Source: Pelagomonas calceolata (taxonomy: Eukaryota). From it: 64,000 bases of DNA. Under the pieces are notes generated by a model. It saw only the letters and a list, made by a program, of their open reading frames with translations. It had not been told where the DNA came from and did no database searches. The position numbers were made by a program, and so were the translations under genes. The stretch lies in contig CAKKNE010000001.1 of NCBI GenBank assembly GCA_918797485.1, forward strand, positions 2,170,001 to 2,234,000, given 5' to 3'. Shown here in pieces: positions 8,746 to 52,335 of the stretch (position 1 is its first letter; the number at the start of each line of letters is the position of its first letter).

Positions 8746-9741
8746 TCATTCCCTCGTGGCGACGCGACGCGCTGCCTCCGCGGCGGCCGCGCGCGCGACG
8801 GCTTCCTCCGCGTTCTCGGCACTGAGGTACCGCTGGTCGGCCTCCACGAGCGCGATTTTCTGCTTCACCACGACAATTTGATCTCGGATGCATACAAGAG
8901 ACCCCGCATAGGGCTCGCACATGATCGTATCTCCGTCTTCGAGACCAAGGTCGTCGCCCGTCTGCCAGCCCTCCTCGATCCGTTCCTCAGAGCCGGGCAG
9001 GTAAAACACCAATTGGGTGACATGGACTTCTTCCTCCAGATATCCTGAGGCCTTCGGCGCGTAGGCCCTAAACATCCTCATGAGTGGTGTTGTGGACCTA
9101 ATAAGCTTGAAGAAGGTTTCTTCACCATTTTCCTTCCACATCACGCGAAGATTGAGATATGTTGTGGGCTGCGGCGGCGGCGGCGGCGATAGGTACGACA
9201 GCACCCGTCGGAACAGGCCCCGTTCGCCCGTGCGGGCGAGGAATTTTAAGGCGCCGTCGTGCGTCGTCGCACGATCACGCAGCGCGAGGTGGCGGACCAA
9301 CGCGCACGTTCGTCGTTGTTCGATCACAAAGCTACGATGACCGCCCGCCGTGCGCACGGAAAGCAGAAACGCCTTGAACGCGAGGTAGTGCGCGTTGTTT
9401 ACCAGCGAAGGATCCCGTCGTTCTTTCTCGCCCAGGACCCATTCGATCGACTCAGATCGGCTCGCGCCTTGGTTCCATTGCGCGTCATAGACCGAAATTG
9501 TGGCCACAGCGTCCAGACTCGCCCCAGCGCGCAACAGCGCGATGGCGACCGCCCGATGTTGTCGTCTTCTGAACCTGGTCGCGTAGAGAATAGCATAAGC
9601 TAGAGGAGAGTACCGGTAAACTTCCTTCCCGCCGTCCTCTAGCATTTTGGTTATTTTAGATGCTCTGTGGTCGATCCCGGCGCCCCATCTTATCAGCAGG
9701 GCGATCAGGCGCGAGGAGGACCAGCCGGGTCCCTGATGTAA
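8746..9741 (-). pseudogene. 3' half of an insertion-disrupted ankyrin + SUMO/ubiquitin-like gene
   Basis: LIALLIRWGAGID, SPLAYA, LLRAGASLD ankyrin motifs; LNLRV..GEETFFKL..TTPLMRMFRAY..LGLEDGDTI SUMO-like domain; joins 14892-15176 in frame. Confidence 0.75.
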
Positions 9742-9908
9742 CATACTAGCCCTGGAGGGGGCATTCCGTTGGCCCCGAGACTGGTGCGTGAGGCGCACCA
9801 GGCTAAAAAGGGCCGCCAAAATCGGCCTTAACGCTGCCGTTGGCCGGTGCCGCTGCGCGTATTAACCGCCCGCACCGTCCCGCGGGGCTCCATAACGAAA
9901 TCCCGGCA

Positions 9909-10655
9909 ATGGATGAGGCTGCGCGCATCGCGGCAGCCCCTGCTGAGGAGGAGGCTGATGCGGCCTGCGACGCCGCCGTCGAGGCCGCTATCGACGAAGA
10001 GCAGGCCGCCGACGACGCCGCCGACGCGGGGCAGCCTCGGGAGGCCCGTGCCACTGTCCTCGATCGCGAAGAAGCCATCCCGCTGTCGCGCGTCCAGTGC
10101 AACAACCTGGGTATACGCTTCCAGCAGCACCACGACGCCACCAAAGCGCTTCGCGACGGCGGCATTCGCGAGTCGTCCGGAGTCAGGTTGCAAGATGGGC
10201 AGTACGGCACCGTCCTTGAAATTGACGGTGCTGCTGCCGTCGTCGAGATACGGAAGCAAGGGAATAAGAGGCGTCGCTTCACGCTGCCCGTGGCCGAACT
10301 TACCCTTCGCGTCCCGAGACTGTCGCAAGCGATGGCTAAGCAGTGGAGTATCGACGAATACGTTATGGAGGGCCCCAAACGTGTCCGACGCGAGTACGAC
10401 GACTGGCGCCGGCGGCACAAATACGCCGGCTTCGTCTCGCACTACAGACGACGGGTTCTGGGTGCGTTGCCGCGGCACCCGACGACGTTCTCTGAGGCGG
10501 ACTTCATCGAAGCTGCTGCGCGCGTGGGCCTCCAACATAGGACCGGGGCGCGGTGGCTTCTCCGCGACTTTGTCAAGGTCACGAAGACGGTCGCACGCCT
10601 CCCGAAGAATAGGGGTCCGCCCGACGCGCCGCGAAAGTACCGCCTTCGCGAGTAG
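9909..10655 (+). CDS. Element accessory protein: acidic N-terminus, KOW/SH3-like middle, basic (wHTH-like?) C-terminus
   Basis: GVRLQDGQYGTVLEIDGAAAVVEI..FTLPVAELTL resembles KOW/SH3; lies inside the insertion, convergent with the transposase. Confidence 0.6.
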   Translation: MDEAARIAAAPAEEEADAACDAAVEAAIDEEQAADDAADAGQPREARATVLDREEAIPLSRVQCNNLGIRFQQHHDATKALRDGGIRESSGVRLQDGQYGTVLEIDGAAAVVEIRKQGNKRRRFTLPVAELTLRVPRLSQAMAKQWSIDEYVMEGPKRVRREYDDWRRRHKYAGFVSHYRRRVLGALPRHPTTFSEADFIEAAARVGLQHRTGARWLLRDFVKVTKTVARLPKNRGPPDAPRKYRLRE

Positions 10656-10744
10656 TAAGAAATTGTAGGAGTGCTCCCCTAGTTATGTGGTACAAACTTT
10701 ACTCAAAAACAACAACGAAAGTCTAGGACCCTCGAGCAGCGAGC

Positions 10745-13700
10745 TCATCCCGCAACAGCTGCTTCCGCCTCGCCAGGCTTCGGTCGGATGCAGGTTTCGT
10801 GGACTTCGCCACTCCAGAGAGTGTATCGATCGGACGTGGACAGGTAGACGTATCTCTTGCAGCAGTCGCAGACGCGCTTGAGCGGTCGGCCCTCCGTGCC
10901 GGACGAATAAACGAAGTCGCGGTGGTCGCGATACGTCGCGACGAGCGCATCGACTTCGCCGCGGAGCCTATCCCACTGCGCAGAATCTGCGAGCGGGATG
11001 TCCTTGGCGAGCTCGGACATCAACTCGGCGCGATGCGACGCGTCCCAGCCCTCTGCATCCGAAGGAATCGACTTGTCGCGGCGCCCTTGCAGGAACGTGG
11101 AGCAGAGCACTATCCCTTCCTCGAAGGCCTTGCGGAGCTTGTCGGGCGGGCCGCGAGACGCCTGCAGGACAAGGAACGGCGAGACAAAGTTCGCGAGAGG
11201 CCCCTGGTCCTGCTCGCCTGCGTCGGTGTGCGCGAGTCGAACGCCGCCAGCGCCGCCGCGGCCACAACCAGCGTAGAAGGCGCCGAACCGCGGCTTCTCG
11301 ACGAGGTAAAGCGTGAGCTCGGTCGTGCGCGCGCCCGACTTCCAGGACCACGCGTAGATGGAGCCTGGTCTCACGTCGATGAAGGTCCGCGCGCCCGGCT
11401 CCGTCTTCTCCGTGTCCTCTTTATCAAAAAAGACGCGGATCCTGTCCTTCTGGACCTCGAGGCGCGCCGCGTAGCCCGCATCTTCAAGCAAAAACGGCCT
11501 CGCGCGCACCCTTCTGTCGCCGCGGCGATAGTCCGCGGCCAAGAGCGCGACCTCAACTTTCTTGAAAGTCCGGCGAAACTTCTCCGTCGCATCGTCCTCG
11601 GCGTCCTCCTCTGCGCCGACGTCGTCCTCACTGGCCGCCGCGTCCTCGTCCTGCTCCGCTGGCGCGTCGTCGTCCGCGTCGTCCTGCGCAGGCGCCGGCG
11701 CTGGCGCTGGCGCTGGGACGGGGCGCGCCCGCGACGTCCTCGCCCAGTGGTTCCCGAGCTGTGGACAAGTGATGAAGGGCCCCTCGCGTCGGGCGCGCAG
11801 CCGCGCGAGGTCCGCGTCCTCGCGGTCGCGTCTCTTCTTCTCGTGGGCCAGGAGCGCAAGCGGCGCGGTCCGGCGCGACTCGTCGGTATATAAGTGCCAG
11901 GACGCGTCGATCTCTCGGAGCAGGTACTCTATTTTGGCGACTTCGCGGTCCAGGAAGTGCTTGTCGACGCTCCCGCCGCGGCATCCATGGTTATAGAATT
12001 TCGTCACGTGCCGGTGGAAATCTTCGACCGGCAGGTCCGACAGGTCGCACGGCGTGATCTCGACGCGCAGGAGCTGCGACAGTCTCTGGCAAGTGCCATG
12101 CAGCGCGCCCGCGTTGTTGGCCGCGACGCGCGCCGTGACGCGGCACTCCTTTTTACCGAAGCAGACCGCAAGCAACGACGCAGCGAACCAGTAGTTGAGC
12201 TGCATCTCGCGCTTGAACGCCCGGTAGCCCTCCCTCGTCGTGCGCGCCATCGTCGCGCGCTGCCACGACAAGACCAGCAGGTCGATGACCCTCGTCACAA
12301 AACCACCAGACTGGACGCCCGGCGGCTTGAAGCCGATTAACGCGTGCGCCTCGAGCGACCCGAGCCGCGCGAAGTCGCCCGTCTTCGTGACGGGGTGCGT
12401 GGTCTTGGTCTCGTGCACGTTCTGCTCGAAGCGCCGGCCGAGGCGCGACGCGACGTGATTTACGAAGGCCGCGTGGACTGGCGCGCCGAGCTTGATGCAG
12501 AGGTGGCCGATGGCCTTCACAACGCCCGCCGTGCCCGTGCCGCCCACGTGGAGAGGTCCGTGCGTGACGCGCGTCGGGTCCGAGCGAACCAGAGGTAGAC
12601 CTCGCTTTTGAAAACGCAGCAAGACCGCCGCGGCGCCGCCCTCCTCGTGTTCCTTCTTGATCTCCTCGTACGAAAAGTCGACGGGCGTGTAGCGGACGAG
12701 CCCGCGCCCGCGATCGAGCCGCAGAGCGACGTCGCGCTTCGTCGCCGTATACGGGTTATCGGCGGGGCTCGCGAAGCCCATCCCGTTAAAACCCTCGCAC
12801 ACGGCCCGCAAATCGAGGGCCAAGGCGTAGATCGCCGCGCGGGCCTCAGGCGCGTAGACGCCGTCGGCGCGCTTGAGCTTGACGGAGATGCCGCCGCCGC
12901 CGCCGTGCTCCCTCGCAGTCAAGTCGTGCACCGTGTCCCAGATCGACGCGAGCGCCCGGCTCGACGCCTCGCCGTGCGCTTTCAGAGCGTCGCGCCCGTC
13001 GTCGTCGAGCGCTAAACCCAGCAGAAGGCAGTGACGCGTGCGGTCCTACGTGAATGAAACGTCATCGAAAACTGCGGTGGTCGACACTGGATGCGACAGC
13101 GAGTGCACCCTTGAGCAAGCACTGCAGGAGCCAGGCCGTGGACTTGTGTTCGCGCGCCCGCCGCCAGTCGCGAAGTAGCTGCGCTGCATCCCACGACAAG
13201 CACAGCGGAAGAACCACCTCGTCGGGACCGCGACCCGCCGGGTACATACCACGCAAAAGCTGATCGTACAACGGCGCCCGCGCTGCACCATTCACCTCTT
13301 TTTCGAGCAGCACGCGCACGTCGCGGCGCGCCGAGCACGCGTGGCGCCGCGCATCAACAAAAACCTCGTAGGCGCCCTCCGTCTGCATCTCAGTCGCAAA
13401 GCGCAGAGGTTCGACGGTCGCCGCAGCACGAGTCTCGGCGCGCCGCGGGACGACGCGCGTGTCCTCGGACGCCCCGGCAATATCAGCCAGCGCGCGGTCG
13501 GTGCGCGCGGCCAGATCGTCGTAGGCCCTTTGGCTAAGGCCTCCGACGCGCCGCCACAGGTCAAAGGCCTCGCACAGACCTTGTTTCCTCGTAGAGAGCC
13601 GCCGCAGAGCGAGGTGGGCCACGAATTGTCGCCCAGCATGCGTCTGCTCGCAGATGACGGCCAGCGTCGGCCACAAACAGTTCTCCGTGAGGAAGTCCTT

Positions 13701-14798
13701 GAGGGCGTCGACCGCTCGCTCCTCGTCGTGGCGGCGAAAGGCGGGCTGCGCGTCGCCGCGAAGGTCGGGAAGCTCGCCGCGCTCTCCAATCGGTTTCAAA
13801 CCCTGAAGCGCCAACCACACAGCGCCCGCATCAAGCGCAGTCTCGCGTCTGGCACACACATGTCGCCGACGAGTCCACCGAGAGAGATCCGCCGTCGGTC
13901 GCGCGAGCTTTTGGGGCGGCTCAAAGCGTCCGAAGGGCTTCACGACCCGCCGAAGCAGCACCGGCAGCTCAGGGCGTCGTGCAGCTTGTGCGACCATTGA
14001 GACAAGCCCTCGACCCAATTCTGGCTCATCTACAAGTGCACGAGACGCCGCATGGCGAGCAACTTTGGTCGACGACGCGACCCGCTTCGCGACGTCGACG
14101 ACGTCGTCGTCCAGATAGACAGGCCTCCGTGCAGCACTTGAGGACTCTTCCAAAGTCTTGCCGGCATCCGTCAGCAGCCGTAGACCCGCGTCCTTCGCCA
14201 CCGTCACGACTGGAGCGGCGGTCACGTTCCTACCTTTAATAGGTGAGCGTCGATGCAGCCGTTTAGCATCGGGAGACTTCAGCATCAACGGCGAAGAGAT
14301 GGGCGTGGCCGGCTTCGGCCTTTTTTGCCGGCGAGTTATTGTTTTAATATGATAAAGCGGCTTGCCCATAACCTCGTCCGCGGCAGGCCCATCATCAACG
14401 TCCATGGCGTGATCCGTCGCGCAGTGTGAGATGAAGGGCTGCCACACAGCATCAGGGACGCCCCACCCTCGAAATAGCTTGATCGCTAAGGCACGAGAAA
14501 CTAGCTGTAGTCCGCCCTTGCCGGTCGACGACGTCTGGTGCGACGCCACGTCCGGCATGCGCACAACAGCCTCAATCGCGTTGCGAAGCCGATCCTTATG
14601 CTGCTTCGCCGTCACTGACAGCTCGCCGTCGCCAAAGAACTTGATGAAGTCACCGACAGAGGGCCAATCAAGCCAGTAGTCATTATCGCCTCGTGCGGCG
14701 CCGCGCGCACATATCTTGACCTCGTCTTCGCCGCCGAGTGGGGCCACGTATGGAGGAAGTCGGTACACGTGAATACGCGCAGCGATAACCGCTGGCAT
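10745..14798 (-). CDS. RAG1/Transib/Chapaev-like DDE transposase (two ORFs probably joined by a short intron ending at AG 13046-13047)
   Basis: Ordered motifs DLSRWTRRRH, LSQRAY, LSWDAA (D), CLLLGLALDDD, ALDLRAV (D), GPLH, LSDLPVEDFH (E), HGCRGG. Confidence 0.6.
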
Positions 14799-14891
14799 TT
14801 TGATTTAGAGGCTGCCGACTGCAGTCGCTCCGCTCGGGTGCACCTAGTATGTTTAATGAGCGTTAGCAGGGAGTTCTGAGATCGTGCATAC

Positions 14892-15176
14892 CATATTGAT
14901 TTCATGAGTTTGACCCGCAGTTTGTAGATTACTGATTGTGAACATACGATTCGGGTCCGCGCCGCGAGTGAGCGCCAGCTCGACGAAGCGGAGTTTTGCC
15001 TCGGCGACGCGTCGGTCACAATGGACCGTGTGGACCGCCGCATCCCACAACACAGATGACAAGTCGTTCGTCCCACGATCCTTTGACACGAGCCACTGGC
15101 GGGCGGCATCGATGTCCTCGACCTTCCCTGATTCTAAGGCCTTGACTATAGACGTAGGGATAGCTGGCCCGGCCAT
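14892..15176 (-). pseudogene. 5' half of the insertion-disrupted ankyrin gene
   Basis: MAGPAIP...VLWDAA...VELALTRGADPN; exactly 95 codons up to the junction. Confidence 0.75.
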
Positions 15177-15338
15177 TGTCCGTGATTCGAGCAGCAATGC
15201 ACACGTGAGAGCAGACTGCTTGCAGCAAGCGTATCGTAGCTATGAAATGTGCTGCCGCGATCGCAGCGATGGCGCAAATCTCCCAGACGCTACGCTTACG
15301 CCAGGCGCCGCACAATGGCAACTCGGGCTGCCTGGGTT

Positions 15339-15480: not shown

Positions 15481-18400
15481 CTAGCCCGGAGCCGGCGCCT
15501 CTTGTTGGCCCGTCAGCAGAGGAGCGAACCGCCTAACATGATCGGTCTTCATGAGCTCCTTGATCTTGCGCAGGCGCTGCTCGGCCTTGGCGTCGTCGCG
15601 GCGCCACTCCTGGGACTGCCACTTTTCCCTCATTTGTAGGGCGTCGGGGTCCGGTTCTGCATCGGCCAGCGCGACTTCCCTCCTCGTCGCGTCCAAGGCA
15701 GCCTCAGCCGCGAGCACCGCGTCCAGCCGATCGTCAGCTCGCTCCAGACACCGTCGAGCCGCGGCGTGGTTCGCCCGGAAACTTTGTAGATCATCAGCAG
15801 AGGTAGGTGCCGCTTCCTTAACTTTCCCGGCATAAGCAGAACCGAAATGCTGCGTCGCGGACTGCATGTTCTCGTCGTAGGCCTTCCTAGCTTTCAACGT
15901 ACACGCTACCACATTCCTGATCGTCTCCCAGCGCTTCCTGACCGATTCGTCGACGGCGCTGTCTTCCTCGACATGTGTAGGTTCAGATAAAGAGGGACAC
16001 GGCACCGAAGTTAACGATTCAATAAATTTGCCCACAACCGGCGTCGCCTTCGTCGGCGTCATCTGCGATGCGGAAGGCTTCTCGCCGGAAGCTTCTGCCG
16101 CTAGAGCGCGTTCCAAGCGATCCACCCTTGATCTATAAAAGACCGAGGCATCTTTCACCGTATACTCCTCCCGCAGATCCTCCTCGGAGTCCGAACCGTA
16201 TGCCCTGTTCTGTAGGGTCGGCGGCGGCACGAGATCGAAAGCTTCGTCGAGGGCGACGTCCGCGAAGTGCCCGTACCCGTGGCAACACACCGCCGCCAAC
16301 AATCTAGCATCATGTGCGGGAGTCCAGGCGACGTGCGTATCGTTTAAATATCGTTCCGTGATGTCCCTGCTGAACTCGACACCGCTGTGCGGGATCTCCG
16401 AGGCTCTTCGTCTCAACTTCCGTTCCACAAGTGCGAAGAACCCGACGCGTCGCAGTACTCTATCGCCGTCGAAGGGATCTCGGGACGCATCATACCCTTC
16501 GGCCTTCTGTCGTAGACACTCATCTAAGGCCTCCCTACATAGTTTCATTGTAGCCGCAGGAGAATCAGCAAGCGAGCCCATCTCGAGCCGCTCGTGCGCC
16601 AACACACCGCCATCGGACAACCCACCGGGCAGGCCAAACCGCTCCAGCTTCGCGGCGACCTTGGCGATCGACGACGCCACGGGTCTAGTTACATCTATCT
16701 CGACCGAATCATCTGAATCCGACTCGACCTGTGTGGAAATCAAATTTACGGCGCGTTCGTCCTGAATCGTCGCGTCGACCTCCACGCCATCGACGCGACG
16801 CCTGCTCGATGGCGTGGCGATGCCGGTTCCTCACCGCTCGACCGAGCCAGCACGGCATCGCCGCGAAGTGCACCCGACACACTGGTTGATTTCCACACAG
16901 GACTCTACGTGATGAAAATCGCCATCGTCCAGATCATCATCTTCCTCATCTAACACCAGCACGGGACCCTGCTTGATCTGCTTCCGTTCTCGTTTGCCCT
17001 TCCCCAAACTTTCCTGCGTTTTTTGTTGCGTCGCGTCGTAACCAGTTTTTAACAGCTTATCCCATCCTTCAAACTCAGGTGAAGGCTCTTCTTCCTCTTC
17101 CGGTACTTCGTCGGTCTCCTCGAAGCTTATTTCGGCGACTTTGAAGGAGTCCATCAGTTTTGATAGGTTGTTTTTCTCGGCGACCGGTGTCTCCTCGTTC
17201 TCTACTTCTGGCTCCCTATGTAATAAAGCAGAGATGGCGTCGTCGTCCCACTTGATCTCCGGTTTGTTCGTATTCCCATCACCGTATCTCTCGGCTCGCG
17301 ACGCGTCGACGTCGGCCGCGGCGCCACCGGAGAACAACTCAGACGCGCCGTACTTGAGCACGTCATCCAACTCGGCCCTCGACAGGTTTTTGGAACCGGC
17401 ACCCGACACGACGACGTGCTCCAGGCACAGCTTTCGTTTCGCGACCGCCACAATGCGCTCCTCGACTGTTGCCCTCGATACGAATCTGTAGACCCGAACC
17501 GCGTCCCGTTGGCCGAGTCGATGCGCCCTCGCTAAAGCTTGTAGATCATTATGAGGGTTCCAGTCCGCGTCATAAATAACGACAGTGTTCGCTGTTGCTA
17601 GGTTGACCCCGAGCCCGCCCGCCCTCGTACTAAGTAAGAACAGAAATAGCTTGGAGTCCGGAGCGTTGAAGGCGTCGATGCGTTTTTGCCTTATATCTGA
17701 AGCGGTCGACCCGTCTAAGCGCGTCGTGCCGTACCGTTTTAGCGCTGCAAATTCCTCCAGCACATCTAACGTTCTTGTCATCTGCGAAAATAACAGAACT
17801 CGAGCCTTGGCCTCTTTTAGTTTGAGGAGCATCCTATCTAGTAAAGCGAGCTTGCCCGAGCCCTGCAATAACGCTTCGACGCGGTCGCCTTGGATCATAT
17901 CTTCCGGGAACTTGTCCCGCATGAGCTCGACGTGGTTGCACACTTTTCGTAATTGCATCACTATATTTTGTAAAGCAGGAGCTCGAGCCTTCGACTTGGA
18001 CCCTTCGGCGCCACTCAAGGCCGGGAAGTTCGCCGTCAAAACCGCCCTATATAACTTCTTCTGCGTCGGCGTGAGCTCGACGCGCACCACGAGCTCCTTC
18101 TTCGCCTTGATCACTCCCTTGAGGACGTCGTCCTTGAGGCGCCGCAGCATGCGACCCTGCAACAACTCCCGCAAATTCGCGAGGCGCTTCTGGGTCGCCT
18201 CGTCCTCTTCGTTGGAGGAAAACACCTGATCTAGCGCCGCGATGGCTGTTGTACCTTCGACAGAGCATTCTTTTTTCACGCGCTCCGGGTCTAGGAAGAG
18301 TAGTAGGTGGTAGAGCTCATCTAATGAATTCTGCAAGGGAGTACCAGTAAGTAACACGCGAAAGGCGCTATCTAAGTCATGTAGCTCCCGAAATAATCGG

Positions 18401-20240
18401 CCGGCACTGCCCGACTTGAGGCGATGGCCCTCATCAACAATCAGGCAGGACCACGCCCCTATACTTTTTAAGGCTGATTTCTCAGAAGAAGCCGTCTCGT
18501 ACGACGTGATGCACACGTGGAAGCGTCGCGTCTTGTCGAATTCCGCATCTTTACAGACGTCTCGCGCCGACGCGGATCCTGTTAAAACGACGCAGTGCAA
18601 ATCGGAACACCACTTCTCGAGCTCGCGCTCCCAGTTCTGTAACGTCGACAGAGGCGCTACTACGAGTGCCGGGCGCCAGTCCTTCTCCGAACGCTCGTAA
18701 ATTAACGACGCTAGCAATCCGGCGGACTGGATCGTCTTGCCGAGGCCCATCTCGTCGGCCAAGATACAACTGGTCTTGGATTGCGCTTTCGCGCGGAGCC
18801 AGTCGAGGCCCTGCAATTGATAATCTCTTAGTGTTCCACCGTCGAACCACGCCGGTTGTGTACTTTTGAGGGCCTTATTGCGAGTAGTAGTGCCGAGTTG
18901 TCTCTTAGCCTTAATAGCAGGCGTATCTACACTTCTTTCTCTCTCATCAAAAGCTTCCCGGAACGACGTGCCGCACCGATCCAGATCGCACTCGCGCTCC
19001 CAGGACGACTCGTCGTAGGGCCTACCTCTCCACTTCACGAGTAAATCTCGGGTCTTCGTCGCTCGTCCGTCAATGCTAAAAGGCCGCTCGGCTAGAACGC
19101 GCTGCGGCACGACGCTAAACCCGCTGCCCGAGTTCCTAGTAGCCGCCGCGAGCCTTCTTAGTTTGATGGCGTCGCCGCGCTTCCAACTAGGGTCCTCGTC
19201 CTCGTCGTTGTCCGAGTCGCCGTCGGCTAATTCCAGACCGACGCCGTAGTCGCGGACGCGCTTCTCGTAGTTGCGCAGTTTGCCCTTCGATAGACCTTCT
19301 ACTCTTTTCCGCTGGACCCATGACCTGTGTGATAGTCAACCAGTGAGTCGCGTGCACGCGGCCGTGCTGGCTCCATCGAGCGGTGAGGAATCGACACACC
19401 GTCACGCCGTCGAGCAGGCGTCGCGTCGATGGCGTGGAGGTCAGAATTGGGCCGTGGGAGATGCGCCGCGACATTTGATTTCCACACGGGTCGGGACGCG
19501 TGCCAATCGGCAGAAGCCTTCCACGTGCATAGGTACCAGTCCCCGTCGTGGCACTCGATGGCCTCCAAACCGTACGACGCTTCGCACCGGAAGCACCGCC
19601 ACAGATCGCCCTGCGGGGCCCGTTGGCCGTTCTCCCGTAAGGCTTGTTCACAATATCTCCGACCGCAATGCCCACATCTATAGTCGGCTTGCTTGTTCCC
19701 ACTCTTCCCACCACCGCACGTCTCGTGGCACAAATTCTTCGCTTCACAACTATCGCACTCGAACACGCCTGCATCCGGCACCCGCTCCCGACCGGCGCAC
19801 TTCATGCTAAAACGTTTGCTACAAATAGCACATTTTTCGGTAGGCACCTGCTTCTTGCACACACTACAGACCGGTGTGCTTTTCGGTTTCTTCGCTACAG
19901 GCTCTTCCTCTTCACTACTATCTTCGAGCGCGACAAAATTGTCGTCTTTTTTTGCGGTTCTAGCTCTAGGTGAACCCTTCCGCGGCGACGGTTTGCTCAT
20001 GGGCCTCGACATCCACTGGGTTAATGCTACTTCTAGCTCTCCCGCCGTCCGGCCCCGGCGCGGCCCGTCGAAGGCTGGATCGTTCGCCACAGCTTCGAAG
20101 TCCTCGCCGCCGTGCTTATGCAAGGCGGGCAAGAGCCAGGCGTCGCCCTCGACGTAGGCCTCTTCTGTGTCTTGAGCTTTCGCGCGCGGCTTCTTGGCGC
20201 TCGGCGCGGTCGTGGGGGAGCTGCGCCGCTTCGGCGGCAT
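15481..20240 (-). CDS. CHD-family (CHD3/4/Mi-2-like) chromatin remodeler; exons 20240-19498, 19324-16909, 16728-15481
   Basis: PHD-like Cys fingers, two chromodomains (YLCTWK..WHASWV; LLVKWRGRPYDESSWE), LADEMGLGKT, DEGH, QLRKVCNH, STRAGGLG, ARAHRLGQ; removing two introner introns fuses three ORFs in frame. Confidence 0.9.
16729..16908 (-). mobile_element. Introner element intron (180 nt) in the CHD gene
   Basis: TIR CTGTGTGGAAATCA...TGATTTCCACACAG (16729-16900); 8-bp TSD GTAGAGTC/GTCGAGTC supplies GT; TIR supplies AG. Confidence 0.92.
19325..19497 (-). mobile_element. Older, inverted introner element intron (173 nt) in the CHD gene
   Basis: Degenerate TIRs, same internal sequence; splicing restores WHASWVQRKRV and the frame into the SNF2 ORF. 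Confidence 0.85.
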
Positions 20241-20726: not shown

Positions 20727-23494
20727 ATGGACACAAGCATGACCTTCGACAACGCCGCGCCCTGCGCGACGCGCTGCAATTTCTGCAGCGCGTGCGTCCA
20801 CTACCGGACGAACGTCCGCATCCAACAAAGACGGGAAAAACAAGAACGGGACCGCCGGCGCGGCATCGCGCCTCCGCCTCCACCCGAACCCGCGCCGTCG
20901 CCGGCCAAGAGGGCGAGGACGATCTCGCAGGAGCCCTTCGTTGATGTTTTATTAGCCGCGGCGCGCGACCCGCTCGCCGTGCCGCCGCGGTCGGCGCCGG
21001 CGCGGACGCAGACGGCGCCCTTCTTCAGTGACGCGGCCATGGCGCCGCCGCCGCCGCGCGCCTCCAAGCGCAAGGCCGAGGAGACGCCGCCCGTCGACAA
21101 GGCGCCGCCCGCGCTGTCGCCGACGCCGCCCGAGCGGCGCCCCGAGCTGGCGCGCGAGGCGCCCGCGCGGGCCCCGTCGCCGGCCCAGCCCTTTGAAATC
21201 GTCGCCGTCGACGACACGCCTCCCGAGGAGACGGCGCCGCCGCCGGTCCCTCCATTGTCGACGCAAGTGACGCCCCTCGACGAGGAGGCCGACGTTATAC
21301 AGCAGAACTCTCGGTCGCTACCCATCCTGCTCGAGGAGACGCCTCCATTAGTACCGCAGCGGTCGCACTCCGCTCCAGTGAGTGACACGACGAGACACTA
21401 CGTCGATTCGCAGTCGCCGCGAAGAGGTTTGTTGGCGGGCCACGCGCTGGCCTTCGCCATCGGCAGCGGCCTGAACAAGCCGCAGGCCGAAACGCTCGCC
21501 CTCAAAGTGAAAGTCCACGCGGGCCGGCTCGTCAAGGGCGCCGGCAAGAAGGCCATCGACGGGATTGTGAAAGAACGCGCTTCAATAGAAGATCGAAGAA
21601 AGGCCTTCGGTGCCGCTACCGTGGTCATTTGCGGGCCGCGAGCTCGCGTCGACGCGCCCGAATTGGAGGGGGCGCGGAAATGCGCCTCTGTAGCGTGGCT
21701 CACGGACGCCTTCGGTTCTAAGAGACTAGGCCACGTCGACGACTACGCTCCATTACCTGCTGTAGTTGTGGAAGCGCCACCGCCGCCTGAACCAAAGAAG
21801 CCGCGGACGTCGTGGCCTGTGTGGAAATCAACCAGTGCGTCGGGTGCTCGTCACGCCATCGAGCAGGCGTCGCGTCGATGGCGTGGAGGACGACGCGATG
21901 ATTCAGCACGAGCGCGCCGTAAAATTTTGATTTCCACACAGGTCGTGGCCCGAGCGCATGAAGCAAGGGTTGGCCTGCCAAAGGGCGCCCAAACCAGAAG
22001 GCGAGCTGCCGCCGAACGACCGAATCGTCAAAAAATTAGAGGAGCTCTGCGGGTTCTACGAGTCTTCGGACGACGGCACGAGCCAGTTCCGGCTGCGCAT
22101 CACGCGGCGGGCCGTGAACAAGCTCAAGTTACTAGGACGGGATTTGACCGACGACGACGTCGAGGAACATAATCTGAGAAAGATCCTGGGCTCGAAGTTC
22201 GCGAAGAAAGACAGCAACAAGGGTCTGGTGCAGAAGATCACGGAAATTCATGAAAGTGGTGACCTCGACCGGCTCAGGGAGTGGCGCGCGGACCCGCGGA
22301 GGTGCGCGATCATGGAGCTGTCCAAGGTCTGGGGCATTGGCTACCGGAAGGCGCAGACGCTGATCGACAAGAATAATATCTGGTCCGTCAAGGAGCTCAA
22401 GGAAGAAGCGGAGAAGAATCCCAAGATCGTCGAGGCGCGCGTGCACCGAACCTTGCGGTGCCACGACGATCTGCAGCTAAGGATGTCGCGCGAGGAAGCT
22501 TTAGAGATCGGCGACCGCGTGCGCAGTTGCGCGAAGGCGGTCTTCGCGGAATTGCTACCTTTACATGACGTGGCGAAGCTGAAAGTCGAGGGTGCGCCGG
22601 CGGCGTCCCGCTTTGGTCGCTCGCGCGTCGATCTCGCGTCGATGGCGTCGCCGCGACGCCGCGACGCCGTCGCCGCGCGCAGGTCCCATGGGGTCGTTTA
22701 GGAGGGGCCAGCCCGACTGCGGCGATGTTGATGTGTTGGTGACGCACGAGGACTGGTTGGATGATCCGGAACGAACCGTATCACTGGACAAGCAGTCGCA
22801 GGAGTCGTCGCTGTCTCGGTCTTCCTACGCTAGAACGAGGAATTTGGGCGACGAAGAGGCCACTGAAGGTGAAGACCCCGACTACGGCGCGCAGCGGTCG
22901 CGGGCGTCGCGGGACAAGTTCCTTGCTACGTTGCGAGATAGGTTGCATGCCCAAGGCTTCCTCACGGACCATCTCGGTGGCGACGGCTTCCAGAAGAAGA
23001 CGACGACGGTCCAGGGCGAGGTGCCCGGCGCCGGGTGTAGCTCGTACATGGGCATCTGCAAGCCGAGAGACACGCATCGGCGGCTAGATATCAAGGTCTA
23101 CGCGCCGCAGCACTACGCGTACGCGATGATTTACTTCACGGGCAACGACTACTTCAATAGAAGTATGAGATGCTACGCGAAGGCGTGCGGCTACTCGTTA
23201 TGTGATAAAGGGTTACGAAAAGCCGCGCGGTCGGGCGTCTCGCACAAGGACGGCAAGTATATTGATAATAAAGTCGCTGTCGGAAGGTTGGTGGTCTGTG
23301 AAGAAGAAAGAGACGTCTTCGAGGTGCTCGGCTTAGATTACAAGGAGCCGCACGAGCGCAACGTGTCCGACAACGCGACCGAAGTCGCGGAGAAGGCGCG
23401 GCGGTTGTTCGAGGAGCAGCGGCGCGGCGGCGTTGTCGTTGATTCCGATAGCGATGACGAAGATGCTAGGCCGGCGGGGCGGTTCCGGTTGTAA
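20727..23494 (+). CDS. DNA polymerase family X (lambda/beta-like) with a BRCT-like domain; introns 21809-21941 and ~22592-22682
   Basis: LACQR, VWGIG HhH, GSFRRG..CGDVDVLVTH, RRLDIK, YFTGNDYFNRSMR, ERDVFEVLGLDYKEPHER. Confidence 0.9.
21809..21941 (+). mobile_element. Introner element intron (133 nt, internally deleted) in the Pol X gene
   Basis: Perfect TSD GTCGTGGC (21809-21816, 21942-21949); perfect 14-bp TIRs; splicing joins PRTSWPERMKQG in frame. Confidence 0.95.
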
Positions 23495-27496: not shown

Positions 27497-27844
27497 TTCA
27501 ACAACTACGCGTCGTCCCTTATCGATGAAGAGCACTTTGAAGAAGCCAAGGCACTGTTGCGCAAGACGGTACCCGTGACACAACGCGTTCTCGGAGAGAG
27601 TGATGACACCACGCTCAGGATGAAGTGGTGCTACGCGTGGGCGCTCTACGGTGACGACGACGCCACGCTCGACGATCTCTTCGAGGCCGTGGAGACGCTC
27701 GAGGATACGGAACGGATCGCGCGGCGCGTGCTCGGCGATGCGCACCCGACCACAACGGGGATTAAGTCCCACCTGCGAGACGCGCAAGCCACCCTCGACA
27801 CTTTCCTCGACGCCCGCGACATGGAATCGTCGGAGGACGAGTAA
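27497..27844 (+). pseudogene. TPR-like (kinesin-light-chain type) multicopy family 3' fragment
   Basis: NNYASSL..FEEAKALLRK..RVLGE..DATLDDL.EAV.TLED.ER.ARRVLG..HP; paralogous to 45675-46005. Confidence 0.7.
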
Positions 27845-45674: not shown

Positions 45675-46005
45675 TTACGCGGCGGCCGGCGCTTCGCGGG
45701 CGCGGAGCGCGGCCCGCGCTTCACTCAGGAATAGCCCAATTCCCGCTGCGAGCGGGTGTTCGCCGCCAAACACGCGCCGCGCGGTCCGTTCCGAGTCCTC
45801 GAGCGTCGTTACGGCCTCGCGGAGATCGTCGAGCGTGGCGTCGTCGTCCTTGTAGAGCGCCTCCGCGTAAACCCACCTTAACCTGAGCGTGGTGATATGA
45901 CCCTCGCCGAGACTACGGCGCGCCACGGGCATTGTTTTGCGCAACAGTGCCTTGGCTTCTTTGAAGCGCCGAAGACCCTTAAGGGATACCGCGTAGTGGA
46001 CGGCC
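45675..46005 (-). pseudogene. Second TPR-like multicopy family 3' fragment
   Basis: HYAVSL..FKEAKALLRKTMPVARR..DATLDDLREAVTTLED.ER.ARRVFG.EHP. Confidence 0.7.
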
Positions 46006-52143: not shown

Positions 52144-52167
52144 GCTAGCGTCTTGTAACACACTAGC
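52144..52167 (+). promoter_or_regulatory. Bipartite motif variant GCTAGCG-N4-GTAACACACTAGC
   Basis: One mismatch to consensus; divergent intergenic region. Confidence 0.5.
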
Positions 52168-52335
52168 CCTGCCAGCATCCAAGCTTTGAGGCGTTTTTGC
52201 GAAGCGCTGAGGCAGTCATTCCTCACGCAGTTCAAACCGTGCAACCATCTCGACGAGTTGCGCCGACTGCGCAAAAATCGAGCTTGCTCTTGCCGCGGAA
52301 CCGGCGAATCCAAGTCAGGCAGGCCAAGCACGCAG

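What the first reader, a model, noticed from the sequence alone, without database searches (positions are those of the whole stretch)
10745..14798. RAG1/Transib-like DDE transposase with extra N- and C-terminal domains
Seen, in the order of the RAG1 core: PTADLSRWTRRRH (nonamer-binding-like), GLSQRAYDDL (cf. LSCSQY), LSWDAA (Asp at ~13188, D600-like), CLLLGLALDDD (cf. PLCLMLADE), ALDLRAVCEGFNG (Asp at ~12812, D708-like), GPLH (cf. ALH), LSDLPVEDFHRH (Glu at ~12023, E962-like). The CxxC and second His zinc ligands look degenerate (DNPYT). The N-terminus looks Bro-N-like; the C-terminus has an acidic linker, a PH-like beta region and CDCC. Established: RAG1 derives from Transib-type transposases, and RAG-like transposons are reported from the pelagophyte Aureococcus. 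Inference: a divergent member with a different architecture.
Basis: partly seen in the sequence, partly recalled or inferred. Interest (0 to 1): 0.85.

Follow-up and report, generated by a model that had tools for sequence, protein, structure and literature searches.

The report
RAG1-fold algal transposon leaving no footprint
The gene is the likely transposase of a 5.1-kb jumping DNA element that splits a host gene in a marine microalga; its predicted fold resembles the antibody-gene recombinase RAG1, yet it lacks RAG1's zinc-binding cysteines and appears to insert without the usual target duplication, a likely new branch of the RAG1 family tree.

Summary
RNA shows a 52-nt intron joining the two ORFs into a 1,333-aa protein. 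D537, D645 and E908 are conserved in relatives of 25-55% identity. Models match RAG1 best (Foldseek E 0.008; VIA Z 10.3), but the RNase H sheet is poorly modelled. The C-terminal beta domain is PH-like; Bro-N and nonamer-binding likeness were not shown.

New here: the gene lies in a 5,141-bp element (9731-14871) with unequal two-part ends (CCCTG-13/4 nt-AACATACTAG) and a convergent, non-kelch 248-aa second gene. The element splits a host gene. Intact alleles (11 of 11 spanning the site) fit only a net removal of exactly 5,141 bp, implying no target-site duplication. A 96%-identical deletion copy has other flanks and also shows none. The CxxC zinc pair is absent across the family.

Verdict: a likely recently mobile, new lineage of the CACTA/Chapaev/Transib/RAG1 (CMCT) clade; not RAGL or canonical Transib. 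The no-duplication claim rests on two copies and on protein-level empty sites. The scan noted RAG1-like orphan genes on other DNA, none with ends or mobility.

The parts
9731..14871 (-). Whole element, 5,141 bp, CCCTG...CAGGG
   Evidence: Homology with locus L001 starts and stops exactly here and the flanks differ; removing 5,141 bp restores the host gene
14844..14871 (-). Left end: CCCTG, 13-nt spacer, AACATACTAG
   Evidence: identical in L001
9731..9749 (+). Right end: CCCTG, 4-nt spacer, AACATACTAG
   Evidence: L001 has two mismatches in the inner 10-mer
13098..14798 (-). Transposase exon 1 (residues 1-567): conserved N-terminal domain of unknown fold, low-complexity linker, DDBD-like helices, first catalytic Asp
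   Evidence: model residue 140 of P0007 aligns to RAG1 461-462
13046..13097 (-). 52-nt GT..AG intron, phase 0; absent from L001
10745..13045 (-). Transposase exon 2 (residues 568-1333)
13188..13190 (-). D537, likely equivalent of RAG1 D600
   Evidence: 8 of 8 rows; two residues after a predicted strand
12812..12814 (-). D645, likely equivalent of RAG1 D708
   Evidence: 9 of 9 rows; between a predicted strand and helix
12746..12757 (-). N664-T667, in place of the C(2)C zinc pair
   Evidence: No Cys in any covering row
12548..12550 (-). H733 of HGxLH, likely equivalent of RAG1 H795
   Evidence: 9 of 10 rows; range start model 296 = RAG1 790 puts H733 at about 795
12023..12025 (-). E908, likely equivalent of RAG1 E962
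   Evidence: 8 of 9 rows; range end model 476 = RAG1 962 in 6oeq_C; other rows within 0-3 residues
11592..11684 (-). Acidic linker
   Evidence: Sequence; present in P0015, P0016, P0018, P0019, P0022, P0023, P0025
11072..11563 (-). Predicted PH-like beta domain (residues about 1062-1225)
   Evidence: RDR2 residues 107-259 Z 10.4 rmsd 2.8 over 121; Spt16-M, SSRP1, Rtt106 Z 7.4-8.4
10790..10870 (-). C-terminal C-x2-C...H-x2-C, predicted zinc finger
   Evidence: Conserved in P0015, P0018, P0019, P0022, P0027, P0033
9909..10655 (+). Second gene of the element, 248 aa, convergent with the transposase; no kelch repeat seen, function unassigned
   Evidence: Transcribed on the opposite strand; dN/dS 0.11 against L001; 77-member cluster; no Pfam or PDB-sequence hit
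14872..15176 (-). 5' part of the interrupted host gene (outside the element)
   Evidence: Clusters with intact 428-436-aa alleles
8746..9730 (-). 3' part of the interrupted host gene (outside the element)
   Evidence: Same cluster; joined frame 422 of 429 identical to allele P0051

Best explanation
The 1,333-aa spliced protein is the likely cut-and-paste transposase of a 5,141-bp element that has inserted into a host gene, with a predicted RAG1-type DDE core, and it likely integrates without a target-site duplication. Shown: the spliced transcript, the two-part ends of unequal spacer (13 and 4 nt), a second copy with other flanks, intact alleles of the host gene, family-wide D/D/H/E conservation and loss of the CxxC pair. 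Predicted: the RAG1-like DDBD, helical insertion and C-terminal catalytic helix, and a PH-like domain. Inferred from RAG1/Transib chemistry: a dimer binds the inner 10-mer and the terminal CCCTG of each end, D537/D645/E908 hold the catalytic metals, both ends are excised (in RAG and HzTransib by nick and hairpin) and joined to the target. Inferred from the empty alleles: the two strand transfers fall opposite each other (zero stagger), so no duplication forms. Speculative: the conserved D663, H729, a His near 880-883 and C886 replace the lost zinc site; the acidic linker plus PH-like domain engage nucleosomes as in FACT-type chaperones; the 248-aa protein is a helper or regulator kept by the element.
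For: Splicing and expression. Element limits, different flanks and an internal-deletion copy. The end pattern occurs twice in the window and in 0 of 100 shuffles (the pattern was chosen after seeing it); 1 of 20,000 random 40-nt pairs shares both features. 11 of 11 alleles spanning the site read E-L-P-G-W. Of 214 boundary/TSD pairings tested, the only one with matched terminal repeats has TSD 0. Conservation. dN/dS 0.11-0.48 by region against L001. Foldseek and VIA-align on two models: helical insertion region 149 residues at rmsd 3.3 to RAG1 790-958. Atlas: RAG1, DUF1280, Plavaka and Transposase_21 clusters at 0.89-0.92.
Against: Both models are weak (mean pLDDT 52.7 and 54.4, pTM 0.42). The second and third RNase H strands came out as low-confidence helices, so clustering of the three acids was not seen, and D537/D645 were not matched residue by residue. 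No Foldseek E-value reaches 0.001; whole-core rmsd is 6-8; the best-matching part is helical, where Z near 10 is less telling. No sequence-level hit to RAG1 or Transib. Atlas shared-feature counts (145-148) are below the 170 typical of same-family hits. Only two copies have known ends; L001 is a metagenome contig that could be chimeric; empty sites are known as proteins only. A 1-bp C duplication with ragged, non-inverted ends fits both copies formally. Near-duplications with one mismatch abut the ends (ACT/ACC in the window, GCAA/GCAG in L001), but in the window they do not fit the allele length.
Confidence: 0.7

Rival explanations
1. It is a very divergent but ordinary Transib- or RAGL-type transposon that makes a short duplication, hidden here by ragged ends or by a small flanking deletion.
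For: RAG1 is the best structural match. The 4/13 spacer pair equals that reported for the pelagophyte AanRAGL (PMC9435367). TSD length varies from 2 to 5 bp within Transib (bioRxiv 10.64898/2026.08.26.747230). A 1-bp C duplication is formally possible.
Against: Needs non-inverted ends or two independent footprint losses. Ends are CCC, not CAC. C(2)C absent in all covering rows. The second gene shows no kelch signal.
Confidence: 0.17
2. The element is mobile but the RAG1-like protein is a catalytically altered passenger, and another enzyme (for example a Spy/PHIS-type transposase elsewhere, or the 248-aa protein) moves it.
For: No duplication is the hallmark of Spy (PMC4122938). The structural zinc site that RAG1 and Transib need is gone. 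The second gene is more constrained and more expressed than the transposase.
Against: D/D/H/E are kept across 25-55% identity. No AAA|TTT target and no GGANNNNG end. Deletion copies lose the catalytic core but keep the ends, as non-autonomous derivatives do (P0014/P0027).
Confidence: 0.08
3. It is a domesticated host gene derived from a transposase and no longer mobile.
For: Extra N- and C-terminal domains, an intron, polyadenylated transcripts; one copy in the 64-kb window.
Against: It interrupts a host gene that is intact in 11 of 11 alleles, and a 96%-identical copy has other flanks.
Confidence: 0.03

Closest known systems
RAG1 / RAG1L (mouse and zebrafish RAG1, lancelet BbeRAG1L)
   Same: Order and spacing of D-D-H-E; predicted DDBD-like helices, helical insertion domain and catalytic helix (Z up to 10.3; BbeRAG1L 8.3); ends of unequal spacer length; a convergent second gene as in ProtoRAG.
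   Different: No C(2)C pair; no CAC heptamer; no 5-bp duplication; second gene not kelch-like; added PH-like domain and a C-x2-C...H-x2-C tail; nonamer-binding domain not shown.
AanRAGL of the pelagophyte Aureococcus anophagefferens (PMC9435367)
   Same: Likely the same algal class; two-part ends with 4- and 13-nt spacers and a 10-bp inner element.
   Different: AanRAGL has a 13-bp CAC-starting outer element, 5-bp TSD, single-exon RAG1L of about 850 aa and an upstream tandem RAG2L. Here: 5-bp CCCTG outer element, no TSD, 1,333 aa with intron, convergent non-kelch gene. Compared by eye only.
Transib (HzTransib; subgroup I with asymmetric TIRs)
   Same: Same fold family (Z 7.5, rmsd 9.7 over 233 residues); asymmetric ends occur in subgroup I; internal-deletion derivatives.
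   Different: Much longer protein, second gene, no C(2)C, no CAC ends, no duplication.
CMCT clade (EnSpm/CACTA, Mirage, Chapaev, Transib, Plavaka, ESTA, Lanisha; PMC12730594)
   Same: [quoted passage not shown]
   Different: The paper gives C(2)C and H(3-4)H as shared, CA..TG ends in most cases and 2-5-bp TSDs; none of these holds here.
Spy (PHIS group; PMC4122938)
   Same: TIR DNA transposon without target-site duplication.
   Different: Spy is placed with IS5/ISL2EU/Harbinger, targets AAA|TTT and has GGANNNNG ends; the two sites here are ACT|ACC and CAA|GCA.

Membership tests
CMCT clade / RAG1-fold DDE transposases | Conserved D-D-E triad in order | tested here: met
   D537 8/8, D645 9/9, E908 8/9 rows; E908 in register with E962 within 0-3 residues
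CMCT clade / RAG1-fold DDE transposases | RNase H fold with the three acids clustered | tested here: inconclusive
   Only the strands before D537 and D645 formed; pLDDT 27-35 over the middle strands; coordinates not available
CMCT clade / RAG1-fold DDE transposases | Helical insertion domain between second D and E, with conserved His | tested here: met
   149 residues at rmsd 3.3, Z 10.1 to RAG1 790-958; H733 9/10 rows
CMCT clade / RAG1-fold DDE transposases | C(2)C motif | tested here: not met
   No Cys at 664 or 667 in any covering row; P0033/P0016 carry a CC a few residues further on
CMCT clade / RAG1-fold DDE transposases | H(3-4)H motif before the E | tested here: not met
   One His only, at 880-883 by subfamily
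CMCT clade / RAG1-fold DDE transposases | CA..TG termini (most cases) and 2-5-bp TSD | tested here: not met
   CC..GG ends; no duplication fits; two copies only
RAGL transposons | RAG2-like kelch gene | tested here: not met
   Second gene is 248 aa with no Pfam or PDB-sequence hit; it was not folded alone
RAGL transposons | RSS-like two-part TIRs of unequal spacer | tested here: met
   4/13-nt spacers, but without the CAC heptamer
RAGL transposons | 5-bp TSD | tested here: not met
   GAACT/ACCCG and GGCAA/GCAGA
RAGL transposons | Nonamer-binding domain | tested here: inconclusive
   Region has pLDDT under 50; alignments begin at RAG1 461 or later
Transib | Phylogenetic grouping of the transposase with Transib | not testable with these tools
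   No Transib, Chapaev or RAG1 sequences were served by a tool in usable form; no sequence-level similarity found
Spy / PHIS | No TSD | tested here: met
   two copies
Spy / PHIS | AAA|TTT target and GGANNNNG ends | tested here: not met
Bro-N domain | Profile or fold match of the N-terminus | tested here: inconclusive
   No Pfam, PHROG, NCBIfam or PDB-sequence hit; the N-terminus was not folded

The most novel reading that the evidence does not exclude
A previously undescribed, superfamily-level lineage of RAG1-fold transposons in pelagophyte algae that is still moving, integrates blunt with no target-site duplication, works without the canonical RAG1/Transib zinc site, reads unequal 12/23-like ends without any RAG2, and carries a histone-chaperone-type PH domain and its own non-kelch partner gene.
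Probability: 0.45. Interest if true: 0.87.

Novelty: new variant of a known kind. Interest (0 to 1): 0.76.

Why it matters
All described CMCT/RAG1-type elements I could find in print make 2-5-bp duplications and keep the zinc motifs, and RAG's bent-target integration explains its 5-bp stagger (recalled). A relative that integrates with zero stagger and lacks the zinc pair would show how far that active site can be rewired. It would also be a scarless cut-and-paste enzyme, since exact excision restores the host reading frame. Unequal two-part ends with the same 4/13 spacing as the pelagophyte RAGL, but without RAG2, bear on whether end asymmetry (the root of the 12/23 rule) predates the RAG1-RAG2 partnership. 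The element looks intact, is transcribed and is polymorphic in an abundant ocean alga, so these points can be tested directly.

Tried and rejected
No whole genome is held for the window, so copy number is unknown. Pfam gave no relevant hit for either ORF, the spliced alleles or 12 relatives; the copy at hand lacks at least the newer RAG1 RNase H model PF26100, so that is a weak negative. PDB sequence searches hit only acidic stretches. The first homolog search missed the protein because its length window began at 1,342 aa; the alignment search added nothing new. No relatives in viral contigs or prokaryote genomes. The metagenome scan covered 31 of 64 parts and gave one locus. The first Atlas search of a shorter piece was weak (recognition 1849, RAG1 at 0.86). 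The wide VIA-align search never ran, so only re-rank Foldseek's own candidates. Complex prediction of the transposase with the 248-aa protein gave no answer. Laying four more RNA runs gave no exact empty-site joint and no informative loose end at the element's ends; one contig joins 9713 to 14935 with unknown letters between. The repeat finder did not list the ends because the parts are short. Rejected: a frameshift or pseudogene at 13046-13097 (spliced); the 107-aa and 332-aa neighbours as separate genes (halves of one gene).
Full report
Setting. The window is compact, about 62% GC eukaryotic DNA. The one named relative is from Pelagophyceae sp. CCMP2097, runs holding the stretch include seawater metatranscriptomes, and a repeated 180-nt intron occurs nearby. 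A pelagophyte microalga is the likely host (inference). No whole genome is held.

Gene structure. The finding covers two minus-strand ORFs in different frames. Stranded RNA reads and contigs skip 13046-13097, a 52-nt GT..AG intron: 7 reads in X21, 4 in X22 (same sample), and one contig each in X2 and X6. Database proteins of 1,066 aa (P0007, 96.8% identical) and 1,335 aa (P0011, 93.6%) read through the same joint. Raw-read depth is about 0.1-12 on the transposase and 8-29 on the second gene. The contigs run from about 10687 to 15311-15328, into the 5' part of the interrupted host gene, which suggests read-through from its promoter; a contig does not prove one transcript.

Family. A search of 1.84 billion representatives with the C-terminal core gave 13 hits at E up to 0.001. 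Core identities to the query are 25-54%. In alignment A8, 13 of 19 rows were kept after dropping near-duplicates and fragments. D537 is kept in 8 of 8 covering rows, D645 9 of 9, D663 10 of 10, H729 and H733 9 of 10, C886 6 of 6, E908 8 of 9, D909 9 of 9 and H911 8 of 9. The E908 miss is P0017, whose tail does not align there; dropped row P0016 has Gly at D645 while its cluster mate P0033 has Asp. The positions of RAG1's C(2)C hold no cysteine in any covering row, and only one His of the H(3-4)H pair remains. The N-terminal domain, acidic linker, beta domain and terminal C-x2-C...H-x2-C recur in distant members, so the architecture is a family trait.

Fold. Two AlphaFold2 models of allele P0007 are weak (pLDDT 52.7 for 1,066 aa; 54.4 for the 532-aa core). 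Even so, every listed Foldseek row to rank 37 for the core is RAG1 or lancelet RAG1L (best E 0.008, probability 0.99, TM 0.31); the first unrelated row has E 1.1 and probability 0.08. VIA-align, re-ranking Foldseek's candidates, gives RAG1 Z 10.3 (rmsd 6.3 over 258), the helical insertion region Z 10.1 (rmsd 3.3 over 149; model 296-472 to RAG1 790-958), BbeRAG1L 8.3 and HzTransib 7.5; unrelated helical rows reach 7.2. Range ends put E908 on E962 in some rows and up to three residues off in others, and H733 near H795. The nonamer-binding region did not align. The middle RNase H strands were not modelled, so clustering of the acids is unshown. The ESM Atlas independently ranks RAG1 clusters first (0.92), then DUF1280, Plavaka and Transposase_21, though shared-feature counts are below its same-family norm. 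The C-terminal beta domain matches PH-like folds: RDR2 Z 10.4 (rmsd 2.8 over 121), and Spt16-M, SSRP1 and Rtt106 Z 7.4-8.4. Bro-N found no support.

The element. The one related locus found, L001, is 96-97% identical to the window from 14871 to 9731 and unrelated beyond both points. It lacks the intron and has a 1,148-bp deletion that removes D645 to E908; the same truncation is in two records (P0001, P0010). A more distant member (P0014/P0027) also has an internal deletion. The shared unit begins CCCTG-13 nt-AACATACTAG and ends with the inverse of CCCTG-4 nt-AACATACTAG; L001 has two mismatches in the right inner motif. One of 20,000 random pairs shows both features. The unit holds a second, convergent 248-aa gene under strong constraint (dN/dS 0.11; transposase regions 0.11-0.61) with no family hit.

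Insertion site. The ORFs on either side cluster with intact 428-436-aa proteins. Of 14 cluster members, 11 span the site and all 11 read E-L-P-G-W; two are the window's own halves and one lacks the motif. Removing a net 5,141 bp restores a 429-aa frame, 422 of 429 identical to P0051. Element plus duplication must therefore equal 5,141. Of 214 boundary pairings, the only one with matched terminal repeats has no duplication; a 1-bp C duplication with non-inverted ends also fits both copies. L001's flanks show no exact duplication either. This is the most novel point and the least secure: two copies, protein-level empty sites, and L001 could be chimeric or RNA-derived.

Mechanism. Most likely an autonomous cut-and-paste transposase of the RAG1 fold that binds both two-part ends, excises the element and joins it to a target with zero stagger. 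End binding, hairpin chemistry, a substitute metal site (D663, H729, His 880-883, C886), nucleosome contact by the acidic linker and PH-like domain, and the role of the second gene are inferences.

Comparison. Tao et al. 2022 (PMC9435367; whole main text, supplement part 1 of 24 and a keyword search; 5 of 21 pages of one file hold no text) describe AanRAGL with 4/13-bp spacers, CAC ends, 5-bp TSD and a RAG2L. Martin et al. 2023 (PMC10629977; passages) give TSD-TIR-RAG1L-RAG2L-TIR-TSD as the RAGL plan. Kojima 2025 (PMC12730594; passages) defines CMCT by C(2)C, H(3-4)H, mostly CA..TG ends and 2-5-bp TSDs. Ilin and Mannervik (bioRxiv 10.64898/2026.08.26.747230; abstract and section 20) show TSD length is labile within Transib, which tempers the claim. 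Han et al. 2014 (PMC4122938; passages) describe TSD-less Spy, a different group. Guerin et al. 2022 (PMC9481584; passages; author names recalled) mention transposons only in passing in the passages seen. Searches found no description of this element; Repbase and subscription journals were not searchable. The element works like RAG1/Transib but fails their membership tests; it is best called a new lineage attached to the CMCT clade, its place untested by a tree.

Earlier scan notes. Nothing matched by sequence or place. Three notes on other genomes describe orphan RAG1-like protist genes, one said to lack the zinc site; I did not test them.

Verdict. Observation confirmed; interpretation partly supported and extended. 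Interest 0.76.

Noticed in passing
window 16727-16906, 19324-19493, 21807-21945: A 180-nt spliced intron in a CHD-type remodeller gene has 78-93% identical copies in the window and draws very deep, variable RNA coverage: an introner-like repeat family.
   Followed up: partly
window 13046-13097 and L001 1865-1866: The transposase intron is absent from L001, while P0047 and P0077 read into it: either intron gain or loss among copies, or RNA-derived assemblies.
   Followed up: partly
window 8746-9730 and 14872-15176: The interrupted host gene (ankyrin-like start and ubiquitin-like end by eye; no Pfam hit) still gives RNA from its 3' part in X6 and X10, spliced 9459 to 9676 in X10.
   Followed up: partly
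window 52154-52171: 17 of 18 bases match the inner part of the element's right end, without the terminal CCCTG (E 0.02); possibly a decayed end or chance.
   Followed up: no
P0015 and P0017 (contigs of 7,805 bases); P0030 and P0036 (5,449 bases): N- and C-terminal halves sit on contigs of equal length, likely one split-called gene of a related element whose ends could be read.
   Followed up: no
window 27504-27763 and 45738-45997: A 260-bp inverted pair at 77% identity.
   Followed up: no
window 9909-10655: By eye the 248-aa protein has an acidic start, a short beta-rich stretch and a basic helical end; its cluster (77 members) is far larger than the transposase's (13), which fits higher expression or many deletion copies.
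   Followed up: partly
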